A DNA stretch of 64,000 nucleotides from Balanoglossus misakiensis (GCA_040954595.2 CM082588.2:6088202-6152201); one strand, 5' to 3'; shown: positions 55,633 to 62,589, counted from the first letter of the stretch. The notes: generated by a model from the sequence alone, not told the origin. Made by a program: numbers and translations.

Positions 55633-57899
55633 TCAGTCTGTGGTAAGGCTGACTAAGAGCCGCCTCTTCCCAGTAAATCCCAACCTCGAGTGACACGCAT
55701 AGAGGTTATCCAGCGCCATGATGTCACCCTTCTGCATCTGGAAACCGACCGACACTTCCCACAACACTTCGCGAATGTGCTGCAGTGCCTCGGCCTCGAT
55801 TTCGCTCCCGTCGCCGTAGTAACAGTGGAAGGGGTACCTATCATCCGGGATGTCCAGGTGAGCCCACAGCGGGTGATCCTTGAAGTACGAGGCGTGGTGG
55901 GAGTGCATTTGGTTGAACCATACTTCTTGTCCTGCAACAAAGTTCAAAGGCTTGTCACACGAGTATTCTACACAATCACGCCGCCAAACTATAACAATCA
56001 CTTTCCAAGTTTTCACAATTTTCTTCGCCAAATGCCTATGACCTGCATTAACTCTCCTTCTCTATCCAAAAACCTCCCTACGATTCTAAATTCAGGAAAA
56101 GGGTTTCATTCACAGAGTCGTCATATAACCATAGTTAGTCCCGCTTCTTACCTTTACACACTAACACGATTGAAACTACTTTGTAATAATAATATCTTGA
56201 AAAACAGCCAGAAAAAAGTTTACATTTCACTGTTCTACTCGACGATCTTTTACTAACTTAAGAAAACTGCAATTCTGATACAGTTACTAACAAACTATAA
56301 TTTCAAAAGACGTCAGATTCACGGAATTCAGTTTATTTGTACGATATTTCTGGCTCCATTAGTTTTTTCTTGTCAACTCTCAATTTGCTTGGTCTGTTCA
56401 ATTTAAATGAAAAATATCACACCTACTCACCTGTTTTCGGATGAGTTGCAAACCCAGGCAGGTTGTAGCAGTATGTCAGGGAACCATCTTCTTCCCAATG
56501 AAAATTCCTCCCGTGTTCAACTAAATACTTTTCAACGTCTGCATTGTCTTCCGTGAAGAAGGCCTAACAATAAACAGAAGCAGGGGTGTACTTTATATCC
56601 AAGTATGAAAAGAGATGGATGTTGCCAACGATTACCATTTTCACAGTGTAAGGTATACGGTCATCTATGCAAATTTAACCACTGTTACCACGGGAGAAGA
56701 TTCGAATTTGGCCAATCACAGATTTTCGGTGGATGGCACACGCTCAAAAAGTGCGCCATCGCAGGGGACATTCGAAAACTTAGACATGCCATTTTGACTG
56801 TACAGAGCCACATGTACATTAAAGGTGACCGTATACCTTTTGTGTCCTGAAATGTGAAAACATCGTACAAAAGTATCTGTAGTGTTTAGTCGCCTGTTCG
56901 CATTATAAGCCCGAGGGAAAGTATGAAACAAATCTGGCGAGATTACTACCTCTTGCCAACTTGTGTATCCGTCTGGTTTCTTGGTTGGAAGGTGCCGGGA
57001 GTATCTGATGCCAAGGCGTCTCACTTTCTCCACAAGTTCGGGATCCAGTTTTGGTAACACATCTCTAACGTCAGTGATGACGCTTTCGCCTCCATTGCCC
57101 GGAAGTGGTGGTATGTCGCAAAAGAAGAATATCTAAGATGAAAAGAAGACATGAATAAGTTAATATTGATCCGTGAAAAAATACACGTATCTTACCTTCA
57201 GCAATTTTGCTACCCTACAGTTATCACGTAAGAAAAGAACCAATTGGCATTCGATTCATGTGATTTCGAGTTCAGAATAATCAGTTGGAACCTCGGAGAA
57301 CTTTGACATGGCCTTTCTGAACTCCGACTCGACCCCCTGAAAAGGTTACGTTTTACCTTCATTGGGTAATGTTCTAAGTAAGACATTTCTGTGTGGGGTT
57401 CGATAGAGTATTCGGACGAGTCGTCACTGGCCGTCATGATTTGTTGGGTGATCATTTGTCTGATGCCGATTCCTCCGGCGCCGTACGTCATCGGGGTGTA
57501 CCCCAGGACTTTCATGAATCGCGAGAAGGCGTGACTGCTGTCGCACTCAGACACACCGCGAAATAGAAGCGCCCCGTGAATGTGCAACTCGCGCTGAACG
57601 ACCCCAAGGACGTCTCGGGCGATGTCGCTCAAGGAGGTCGAACTTTTCTCTGCACAACTGGCGACGCTGTACAACACAGGGAAATTGTCCCTTGGACTCG
57701 CGACGTATTTGGGGAACTTGGTACCTTGGGTTAACGCCCCGGGGAGCCATTTTCTTCCAGCTACCAGCGCCGTTGTCTGGTCTGGTATTTCAACTCGCCG
57801 ACTGTAGTTGAATTTTGCCACACATCTTGTGCTGGTGGAAAACGAACGGGCAAGACTCCCAACTTTTCGGAAAAGAACCGAAACAGACTGCATTGTCAT
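55633..57899 (-). CDS. DdaC/SyrP-like dioxygenase paralog E (385 aa); its exons 2-4 may be shared constant exons
   Basis: Exons 57899-57357, 57132-56950, 56563-56431, 55931-55633 with canonical GT/AG. SIEPHTE and DNLYACHSRLGFTGKRRL motifs. Confidence 0.9.
56651..56838. mobile_element. MITE of the same family as 9751-9924, inverted
   Basis: TIRs aggtatacggtcatct / aggtgaccgtatacct. Internal ccaatcacagattttc.gtgg.tggcacacgc is the reverse complement of 9833-9866. Confidence 0.7.
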
Positions 57900-57933
57900 C
57901 GATTGTCAATGGTCCCACCAAAGCTAGCAATAT

Positions 57934-58065
57934 GTTGTTGTTGTTGTTGTTGTTGTTGTTGTTGTTGTTGTTGTTGTTTTTGTTGTTGTTGTTGTTGTTG
58001 TTGTTGTTGTTGTTGTTGTTGTTGTTGTTGTTGTTGTTGTTGTTGTTGTTGTTGTTGTTGTTGTT
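57934..58065. repeat. (GTT)n microsatellite 35 bp upstream of the gene E start codon
   Basis: Direct reading. Confidence 0.95.
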
Positions 58066-60488: not shown

Positions 60489-61034
60489 CTTCAAAGGATA
60501 ATGATCCGAATACGCCATTTCGTTGTGGGGTTCAATGGTGTACTCAGGCGGGTCGTTGCTGGCTGTGAGGACATCCTGTGCCACTTTATGTCTGACGGCC
60601 GTCCCCCCTTCATATCCGAGCTGTGTATAGCCAAGGCCTTGCATGAACTGTGAGAATTCGCGGCCATTACTTTCTAGCGGTACACCACGGAATAGCAGGG
60701 CGCCGTAAACGTGCAACTCGCGGTCGATGATTTCCCGAGCTTCTTTTGCGTACTCAATAATTGATGTTGCGCCTTTCGCGGGAGAGATTGCACTATACAA
60801 CGCCGGGGCGTTGTCCCTTGGACTGGCTACGTATTCTGGATAGTTACTTCTTGGAGTCAATGCCCCGGGGAGCCACTTTCTTCCCAATAACAGCGCCGAT
60901 GTCTGGGCTGGGATATCGACTCTGCGCTTGTAGTTGAATTTCGTAGCGTACCTTGTGCTGGTAGAAAACAAACTGGCTCTCTCTACAACCGATGGCACCA
61001 CAACATTCCGAAAGATTACCGAAACAGATCGCAT
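60489..61034 (-). CDS. Stand-alone dioxygenase first exon F (182 codons); candidate alternative first exon
   Basis: ATG 61034, open frame MRSVSVIFR...TIEPHNEMAYSDHYPLK, phase-0 donor gtaata. No exon 2-4 homologues between it and gene E. Confidence 0.85.
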
Positions 61035-62043
61035 CGTGTCATGCAGGTGCAGGCTATCAAATCAGCAGAAACTAAAACGAAGGACAGTGTTCACCGGCCT
61101 TGAGAAAGTGGGGTAGCGGAGGTAATGGTATTGGCCTGCACACAATGCACACCAATAAAAGCGAGTGTTCCTAGTTACATAACGTAGTGACGCGATGCCT
61201 GGGTGTTGTTCTACGTCGTGTTTACTAATACCACGGTCACTCCACACAATACTTTCACAATGGTCCTACACTTCACATAGCCGTGGAGTCGTATTCGTGG
61301 CTTTCAGGCGATCTAGTGTTCCGATTATATTAGTGCACGCGTATTGAAAGGTCATCGACTGAACCAATAATACACCGCTCGCATTAATTGTGGTCGCCGA
61401 CCTAATTCCATACGCCAAAGTAGGCTACAAAGCTTAGACAGACGGACCACGAACTACTTTAGATCTAGAAAATTGTCATGTGACTCCTAGGAACCGCGCG
61501 AAACGGCGAATCCTTGAGAAAGGTCGACAACTTTTCATAAACAAGCGCACAAAAAAGATGTACTGAAAGTTCTGTGGTACACCCTAACTTTTTTAGGCAT
61601 TTTCATGATTTTAATTTAAAATGGAAAGTATCTCGGGGATGTGTGAAGTGTAAAGGTGACGGAAAATATGAGTCCAGGATCTTTCCACTATTGTCCGACA
61701 TGATTTTGAGTTACCAGAAATGAATGCCCGGGATCATGCAGACCCGCGGCGCGCCTTGGTAAATGCTGTTCAGGTAACTTTCAATTCAATCCCTCGCGGA
61801 AGGAACAAGGGAGTTTTGATCGCTGGGCACGAATGTATCGTGAATTTCCGGATTTTAGAACTTCATGATGTTTGTACGTACACTACTGCCGTGCGTTTAC
61901 AGCACTCTGAAGTTTGTCTCGTCTTCACTGTCAGTCGGTATGACCAATATCGCATATAAATAAAGGGGATCTCTTCCGATTTACAGTAATATCCCACATT
62001 ACCTCTGACTTCATTTTACATGAAAATCATTTCTATTAGTTAC

Positions 62044-62589
62044 CTTCACAGGGAAATAATCCGAATACGCCATTTCGTTGTGAGGTTCGATGGTGAATTC
62101 GGGCGGGTCGTTGCTGGCCGTCAGGACATCTTGGGCCACATGGTGTCTGACGGCTGTTCCCCCTTCATATCCGAGCTGTGTATAGCCAAGGCCTTGCATG
62201 AACTGTGAGAATTCGCTGCCATTACTTTGTAGTGGTACACCACGGAATAGCAGGGCGCCGTAGACGTGCAACTCGCGGTCGATGATTTCCCGAGCTTCTT
62301 TTGCGTACTCACTGATTGATGTTGCGCCTTTCGCGGGAGAAATTGCGCTGTACATCGCCGGGGCGTTGTCGGTCGGACTGGCTATGTATTCAGGAAACTT
62401 ACTTCCCGGAGATAACGCCCCGGGGAGCCACTTTCGCCCCAATAACAGCGCCGATGTCTGGGCTGGTATCTCAACTCTGAGCTTGTAGTTGAATTTCGTT
62501 CCGTGCCTTGTGCTGGTAGAAAACGAAGTGGCTCTTTCTACCGATGGCATCATCACAGCCCTCCGGAGGATGACCGAAACAAATCGCAT
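62044..62589 (-). CDS. Stand-alone dioxygenase first exon G (182 codons); candidate alternative first exon
   Basis: ATG 62589, open frame MRFVSVILRR...TIEPHNEMAYSDYFPVK, phase-0 donor gtaact. No exon 2-4 homologues in the 1-kb gap to exon F. Confidence 0.85.

What the first reader, a model, noticed from the sequence alone, without database searches (positions are those of the whole stretch)
55633..62589. Variable-first-exon / constant-exon dioxygenase locus (UGT1A- or protocadherin-like architecture)
Seen: three tandem, same-strand first exons (E 57899-57357, F 61034-60489, G 62589-62044). Each has its own ATG, an open frame, an intact HxE iron motif and a phase-0 GT donor, but only one set of exons 2-4 lies downstream, and exon 2 is entered in phase 0. 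F and G differ at many nucleotides yet neither has a stop or frameshift, which is not what decaying fragments usually look like. Known: vertebrate UGT1A and clustered protocadherins splice promoter-specific variable exons onto shared constant exons. Inference: exon 1 here carries the targeting peptide, the substrate-lid loop and HxE, while the shared exons supply the distal His and the 2OG-binding Arg. One locus could therefore make three enzymes of different specificity. I know of no description of this for a TauD-family gene.
Basis: partly seen in the sequence, partly recalled or inferred. Interest (0 to 1): 0.88.

Follow-up and report, generated by a model that had tools for sequence, protein, structure and literature searches.

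The report
Acorn-worm dioxygenase, three swappable front exons
An iron-dependent oxidising-enzyme gene, likely from an acorn worm, has three intact versions of its front half lined up before a single back half, so it likely makes up to three enzyme forms from one gene, a layout known from vertebrate detox genes; the splice joins have not been seen in RNA.

Summary
Three intact, same-strand copies of coding exon 1 (E, F, G) of a TauD/DdaC-like Fe/2-oxoglutarate dioxygenase lie upstream of one set of exons 2-4, with no exon 2-4 remnant between them. The closest homologues are acorn-worm (Ptychodera flava) proteins. F and G are not simple debris: pairwise omega is 0.31 (core 0.20), both keep 32 of 32 conserved residues, and the shared exons match F/G in conservation better than they match E. 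Selection is shown on F and E but unresolved on G alone. No RNA run was listed, so the joins and separate promoters are untested, and G has an acceptor-like tract before its ATG. 'Three specificities' is overstated: F and G are nearly identical around the active site, and only E differs. RefSeq annotates a similar, independently arisen isoform pair in P. flava. The layout is known (UGT1A, GCNT2, sDscam; 40 human N-terminal cases), and this scan noted it earlier in several other invertebrate genes, though not in this family. Verdict: a probable new member of a known kind.

The parts
62044..62589 (-). Variable coding exon G (ATG, predicted targeting peptide, loop before HxE, HNE at 62082-62074, phase-0 donor)
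   Evidence: branch omega unresolved
62597..62666 (-). Acceptor-like pyrimidine tract ending 7 nt before the ATG of G; possible 70-nt 5' UTR intron (inferred)
   Evidence: top 0.1% of 3233 minus-strand AG sites under a crude score trained on 14 acceptors; coordinates
60489..61034 (-). Variable coding exon F (HNE at 60527-60519); the most conserved, ancestral-type exon 1
   Evidence: branch omega 0.11, p 5e-6; 32 of 32 conserved columns; 71% to P. flava XP_070568316 core
57357..57899 (-). Variable coding exon E, proximal (HTE at 57395-57387); diverged loop before HxE; second in-frame ATG at 57893 aligns with the F/G starts
   Evidence: branch omega 0.27, p 5e-6; 28 of 32 conserved columns
56950..57132 (-). 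Shared exon 2 (phase 0 entry; begins with a core beta-strand of the fold)
56431..56563 (-). Shared exon 3 (133 nt)
55633..55931 (-). Shared exon 4 with distal His (55692), predicted 2-oxoglutarate-binding Arg (55665) and stop

Best explanation
One acorn-worm-like dioxygenase gene has three paralogous coding exons 1 in tandem before a single set of exons 2-4, and each is likely transcribed from its own start and spliced in phase 0 to exon 2, which would give three 385-386-aa enzymes. Inferred mechanism: the promoter used sets which donor is nearest the cap, and the downstream copies are removed as intron. Inferred history: F with exons 2-4 is the conserved, ancestral-type enzyme; G arose by duplication of an F-type exon; E is an older, faster-diverged variant that now sits next to exon 2. 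Predicted output: two functional classes, not three. F and G would have near-identical active sites and differ mainly in the N-terminal targeting peptide and in regulation. E would have an altered substrate pocket. The substrate is unknown; small-molecule hydroxylation, probably in mitochondria, is inferred from family and N-terminal composition.
For: Intact frames, one donor phase, no remnant of other exons 2-4. F-G omega 0.31 (p 1.4e-5), core 0.20 (p 1.3e-6), dS 0.29. F/G flanks do not align clearly above shuffles (upstream 9 of 200, downstream 31 of 200), whereas a 96%-identical 1.5-kb duplication in the same window already carries a frameshifted exon-3 copy. F and G keep 32 of 32 columns conserved in 25 outside homologues; complete paralogues D and C keep 30 and 28. 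Against 8 outgroup proteins, exons 2-4 minus exon-1 identity is 4.1 for F, 4.6 for G and 0.7-7.9 or 0.5-5.1 in complete genes, but 15.3 for E (degenerate B: 11.8). The 10 G-derived mature changes are conservative (mean BLOSUM 1.2 vs -0.45 neutral, p 0.0007). P. flava XP_070569219 and XP_070569220 differ at 22 of 181 exon-1 residues and 0 of 204 after it.
Against: No RNA junction or 5' end was seen. Omega on G's own branch is unresolved (3.6 whole exon, 0.70 mature; interval about 0.15 to above 5), and G carries 17 of the 25 polarised amino-acid changes but only 4 of 16 polarised silent ones. No shared promoter motif was found among the exon-1 copies; the best F-G match was reached by 2 of 40 shuffles. 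G has an acceptor-like tract at -7 and F a weaker one at -19. The exon-1 tree does not resolve which window exon is closest to the P. flava best match. Omega measures past selection and cannot exclude recent loss. RefSeq isoform labels in this family are unreliable: of 14 isoform sets examined only 1 shows the pure layout, and 3 others join exon 1 to one of two complete neighbouring gene bodies. AATAAA occurs twice between F and E.
Confidence: 0.62

Rival explanations
1. E, F and G are all used, but as mutually exclusive internal cassettes under one upstream promoter and non-coding leader exon (splicing choice, not promoter choice).
For: G is preceded by the best-scoring acceptor-like site in its region (score 8.0; true family acceptors -0.7 to 5.8); F has one at -19 (4.0) and E at -263 (3.6).
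Against: The F and E sites are within what the best of many AG sites gives (top 1.6% and 2.3%). G's tract can be explained by a local 70-nt UTR intron. Among the 25 longest of 53 inverted repeats none links the E-exon 2 intron to the F or G introns convincingly.
Confidence: 0.12
2. Only E and F are live alternatives; G is a relaxed or recently silenced relic, like the pseudo-exons within UGT1 clusters.
For: G's branch omega is not distinguishable from 1. At G's approximate divergence (0.05 per site) a neutral exon stays free of stops in 33% of simulations if indels are ignored. The absence of G changes at conserved columns is only marginal (p 0.03 whole, 0.08 mature).
Against: With the in-window indel ratio (9 per 54 substitutions, taken from mostly non-coding DNA and probably too high) survival falls to 1%. 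G-derived mature changes are conservative (p 0.0007). A single omega of 0.20 for F and G is not rejected (2dlnL 2.9).
Confidence: 0.1
3. F and G are orphans of formerly complete tandem genes that recently lost exons 2-4; their low omega dates from before the loss.
For: The family undergoes birth and death in this window: paralogue B lost its exon-1 start and the Glu of HxE, and carries a broken extra exon 3.
Against: It needs two separate deletions of about 1.5 kb or more, each sparing exon 1 and its donor and leaving no trace. It leaves the most conserved exons 2-4 paired only with the most diverged intact exon 1.
Confidence: 0.1
4. Assembly artefact: near-identical exons 2-4 of three tandem genes were collapsed, or haplotypes were joined.
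For: Recent P. flava paralogues have similar exons 2-4 (6-17 differences in 204 aa). No reads could be laid on the window.
Against: No N in the window; other tandem repeats, including 1.5-kb units at 94-95% identity, are resolved in it; the spacers G-F (1009 nt) and F-E (2589 nt) are unrelated to each other (77 of 100 shuffles score as high); dS of 0.29 and above 1 with unalignable flanks does not look like alleles.
Confidence: 0.06

Closest known systems
Vertebrate UGT1, UGT2A and GCNT2 variable-first-exon clusters; clustered protocadherins alpha/gamma (PMC1885805, passages read)
   Same: Tandem, same-length, same-frame paralogous coding exons upstream of one set of constant exons; variable exon includes the targeting signal and part of the substrate site; birth-and-death evolution.
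   Different: Only three exons are seen; promoters and joins are untested; no shared upstream motif found; unrelated enzyme family in an invertebrate. The splice junction falls at the start of a core strand (residues 181-188 in the P. flava model), inside one catalytic fold, not between two domains as described for UGT.
Chelicerate sDscam 5' variable cassettes (PMC4835542: abstract, outline and section 11 read)
   Same: Invertebrate tandem 5' variable units joined to constant exons through alternative promoters.
   Different: Cell-surface receptor, cassettes of two or four exons, far larger arrays, experimentally validated.
Ptychodera flava RefSeq DdaC-like isoforms XP_070569219.1 (X1) and XP_070569220.1 (X2)
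   Same: Same family, same junction; paralogous exon 1 (159 of 181 identical) on identical exons 2-4 (204 of 204).
   Different: Not orthologous to E/F/G: they sit in a P. flava-only clade (97/94 for exon 1, 99/96 for exons 2-4). Automated annotation only; its genomic layout could not be viewed.
Clavaminate-synthase-like / DdaC-like TauD-family Fe(II)/2-oxoglutarate dioxygenases (Arabidopsis At3g21360, PDB 1y0z)
   Same: Pfam TauD; the P. flava homologue matches 1y0z by sequence (E 2e-33) and fold (Foldseek E 1e-25); HxE, distal His and Arg present.
   Different: Substrate unknown; animal members have an N-terminal extension; 'DdaC-like' is an automatic name, with no evidence here for dapdiamide chemistry.

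Membership tests
Variable-first-exon / constant-exon locus (UGT1A, GCNT2, Pcdh type) | Tandem array of paralogous coding exons of like length and frame | tested here: met
   543, 546, 546 nt, all phase 0
Variable-first-exon / constant-exon locus (UGT1A, GCNT2, Pcdh type) | One downstream set of constant exons, none between the variable exons | tested here: met
   limited to the assembled window
Variable-first-exon / constant-exon locus (UGT1A, GCNT2, Pcdh type) | Variable exons kept by purifying selection | tested here: inconclusive
   Met for F and E branches and the F-G pair; unresolved for G alone
Variable-first-exon / constant-exon locus (UGT1A, GCNT2, Pcdh type) | [quoted passage not shown] | not testable with these tools
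   No run was listed for 58100-62800, so no reads could be laid
Variable-first-exon / constant-exon locus (UGT1A, GCNT2, Pcdh type) | Each variable exon has its own promoter (often with a shared motif) | tested here: inconclusive
   No significant shared motif in 400 nt upstream; acceptor-like tract before G; no 5' end data
Variable-first-exon / constant-exon locus (UGT1A, GCNT2, Pcdh type) | Layout conserved across related species | tested here: inconclusive
   Similar P. flava isoform pair but non-orthologous; no animal genomes searchable
TauD/TfdA family Fe(II)/2-oxoglutarate dioxygenase | Pfam TauD match and double-stranded beta-helix fold | tested here: met
   PF02668 on all three exons 1 and on exons 2 and 4; fold tested on the P. 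flava stand-in P0001, pLDDT 91
TauD/TfdA family Fe(II)/2-oxoglutarate dioxygenase | HxD/E...H iron triad and 2-oxoglutarate-binding Arg | tested here: met
   H169-x-E171, H367, R376 in the joined E protein; H169, H367, R376 invariant in 65 homologues
DdaC (dapdiamide epoxidase) in the strict sense | Epoxidation of a carrier-tethered substrate in a dapdiamide pathway | not testable with these tools
   Name comes from automated annotation only; DdaC activity seen in a search listing only (PMC12451424)

The most novel reading that the evidence does not exclude
This dioxygenase family repeatedly evolves mix-and-match enzymes. Because every paralogue has the same phase-0 intron at the start of a core strand, any exon 1 can be spliced to any downstream body. 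Acorn worms and amphioxus would then build chimeric active sites from two halves of one catalytic fold, by read-through splicing between tandem genes, and this locus would be the fixed end state, with three front halves on one body and E giving a new substrate specificity.
Probability: 0.25. Interest if true: 0.7.

Novelty: new member of a known kind. Interest (0 to 1): 0.45.

Why it matters
If the joins are real, this extends the UGT1A-type layout to a TauD-family oxygenase in a non-vertebrate deuterostome, with the variable/constant boundary inside a single catalytic fold. E, F and G on one body form a natural domain-swap experiment that would show how much specificity the N-terminal half sets, in an animal enzyme family whose substrates are unknown (PMC12225738, passages: function undetermined for cnidarian TauD-domain genes). 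It also shows a young version of such a cluster beside ordinary full-length paralogues. The layout alone is not surprising: 40 human N-terminal tandem-exon substitutions are annotated (PMC9741552).

Tried and rejected
Whole genome: none held. RNA: no run was listed for 58100-62800, which is no evidence either way, so no reads were laid. A search for short junction-spanning protein fragments with exon F returned 3 distant proteins (36-43% identity), none from this species. Gene conversion between F and G: the longest run of identical four-fold sites was not unusual (p 0.37); it is still unexplained that flanks are more diverged than dS 0.29 predicts. Docking-site style RNA pairing: nothing convincing. 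Shared promoter motif: not found; CpG content is uninformative, window o/e 0.93. Orthology of E/F/G to the P. flava isoform pair: rejected. Most other RefSeq isoform sets were rejected as support: of 14 sets, 3 contain two complete gene bodies plus hybrids, and 10 differ in other ways. My first exon 3/4 coordinates were off by one base and were corrected. Literature: 'hemichordate' + 'DdaC' gave 0 papers; seven other searches (only the top 5-20 listings seen) showed no description of this layout for a TauD-family gene. The library lacks most subscription papers, and no supplements were read; the event tables of PMC9741552 could hold a human oxygenase case, although 'dioxygenase' does not occur in its main text.

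Full report
Observation. The three exons are as described. E (57899-57357), F (61034-60489) and G (62589-62044) are open from ATG to an AAG|GT phase-0 donor and carry HxE. The shared exons are 57132-56950, 56563-56431 and 55931-55633; joined in silico they give 385 aa with E and 386 aa with F or G, without stops. Unspliced, each exon 1 would stop 10-48 codons past its donor and lack the distal His. tblastn and sensitive profiles found no remnant of exons 2-4 between 57357 and 64000, while recovering 5, 6 and 4 copies of exons 2, 3 and 4 in the whole window. Four further paralogues (A-D) lie at 0-14.4 kb, each with its own exons 2 onward; an Ig-domain kinase gene lies between them and this locus.

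Identity. All three exons 1 and exons 2 and 4 match Pfam TauD. The best hits are 'DdaC-like' proteins of the acorn worms Ptychodera flava (up to 63-64% with G), Glandiceps and Saccoglossus, then amphioxus, so the window is likely from an enteropneust; no genome is held. The P. flava homologue P0001, used as a stand-in, folds at pLDDT 91 and matches Arabidopsis At3g21360 best by sequence and structure. HxE is in exon 1; His367 and Arg376 are in exon 4. The exon 1/2 junction falls at the start of strand 181-188, inside the catalytic fold. The first 26 residues are unstructured in the model, and the first 32 residues of E, F and G are rich in Arg, Lys, Ser and Thr with at most one acid; a mitochondrial presequence is my inference from general knowledge, and no predictor was run.

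Are F and G alive? Pairwise omega is 0.31 (dN 0.090, dS 0.287, p 1.4e-5), 0.20 over 139 core codons and 0.66 (not significant) over the 43 N-terminal codons. Their flanks do not align clearly above shuffles. As an internal control, a 1.5-kb duplication with 54 mismatches and 9 indels already carries a frameshifted exon-3 copy. F and G keep 32 of 32 columns conserved in 25 outside homologues; E keeps 28, D 30, C 28, A 31, B 25. A branch model shows selection on F (0.11) and E (0.27), both p 5e-6, but not on G (3.6 whole, 0.70 mature, not significant). G's interval runs from about 0.15 to above 5, and a shared omega of 0.20 is not rejected. G's 10 mature changes are conservative (p 0.0007); the same test on F's 7 changes is not significant (p 0.20). 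Neutral survival of an open frame is 33% without and 1% with indels at 0.05 divergence, and 5% and 0 of 5000 at 0.145.

Which exon belongs to the shared body? Against 8 outgroup proteins the shared exons 2-4 average 58% identity, the highest of the 4 complete window bodies compared. F and G average 54%, E 43%. The gap is 4-5 points for F and G, 0.5-7.9 in the 10 complete comparison genes other than B, 11.8 in degenerate B and 15.3 for E. Over the 42 residues ending at the donor, the P. flava best match P0001 agrees with F at 39 and with E at 23 (counted by eye). I infer that the body is kept for an F-type enzyme and that E is the derived variant. The tree itself leaves this as a polytomy, so this is a rate argument, not a proven orthology.

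Relatives. RefSeq's P. flava XP_070569219 and XP_070569220 differ at 22 of 181 exon-1 residues and are identical over 204 residues after the same junction. They fall in a P. flava-only clade, so this would be an independent origin. Of 14 annotated isoform sets examined, only this one shows the pure layout. Three more (P. flava XP_070567968-70, an amphioxus hybrid set XP_078575906-08, B. lanceolatum Hypp7138) have two gene bodies plus hybrids, which may be read-through splicing or mis-mapped reads. I could not see these genomes.

Mechanism. Shown: anatomy, frame compatibility, selection on E, F and the F-G pair. Inferred: promoter choice followed by splicing of the cap-proximal donor to exon 2, as described for UGT1 (PMC1885805, passages); sDscam shows that downstream variable exons can also be joined (PMC4835542, section 11). 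Untested: joins and starts; no RNA run was listed. Against strict 'first exon' status, G has an acceptor-like tract 7 nt before its ATG, in the top 0.1% of 3233 AG sites under a crude score, possibly a 70-nt UTR intron; no shared promoter motif was found.

Specificity. F and G differ at 29 of 182 residues, 14 of them in the first 43 aligned codons and only 2 between positions 126 and 177. Among 11 hemichordate paralogues, mean column entropy is 1.07 in mature exon 1, 1.00 in exon 2, 1.17 in exon 3 and 0.84 in exon 4, so variable positions are not confined to exon 1. Two functional classes (F/G and E) are more likely than three. The substrate is unknown; for cnidarian TauD-domain genes it is also undetermined (PMC12225738, passages; I did not test whether those genes belong to this subfamily).

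Novelty. The layout is established for UGT1, GCNT2, protocadherins and sDscam, and 40 of 236 human tandem duplicated exon substitutions are N-terminal (PMC9741552, passages). Earlier notes of this scan report it for innexin, fibrinogen-like, ACE, AIG1, Rh and BK-beta genes in other invertebrates (unchecked AI notes), and none for this sequence. Eight literature searches showed no description for a TauD-family gene (listings only). Verdict: real anatomy, probably functional (about 0.84 that at least F uses exon 2), a new member of a known kind, interest 0.45.

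Noticed in passing
window 6134-2855 (-) and 6155-7643: Paralogue B lost the 5' end of exon 1 next to a 1.5-kb duplication (3260-4756 vs 6155-7643) and has HNR in place of HxE; the duplicated exon 3 at about 6636-6491 is frameshifted.
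   Followed up: partly
window 1987-1439 (-): Paralogue A exon 1 has no ATG at the usual place (first ATG at 1927), so it would lack most of the targeting stretch or need an upstream exon; its motif reads ELHNEK.
   Followed up: partly
window 14390-8682 (-): Paralogues D and C are complete four-exon genes; C has a strongly altered loop before HxE.
   Followed up: partly
window about 28300-39500 (-): Exons of an Ig-domain protein kinase gene (Ig domains at 38.5-39.5 kb, kinase exon at 28.3-28.6 kb) separate the two dioxygenase clusters; a reverse-transcriptase fragment lies at 34179-35075.
   Followed up: partly
window 57935-58065: An (AAC)n tract of about 130 nt ends roughly 35 nt upstream of the ATG of E, where a promoter or 5' UTR would be expected.
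   Followed up: no
window 60489-62589 flanks: F and G have dS 0.29 but flanks that barely align; no conversion tract was detected, so this mismatch is unexplained.
   Followed up: partly
RefSeq proteins P0031/P0086/P0087, P0033/P0099/P0041, P0114-P0132: Annotated hybrid isoforms join exon 1 of one tandem paralogue to the body of its neighbour in P. flava and amphioxus; real read-through or annotation artefact.
   Followed up: partly
window 14839-16172, 19678-24886, 46790-48344: Tandem arrays with units of about 40 nt, about 1.5 kb and about 330 nt.
   Followed up: no
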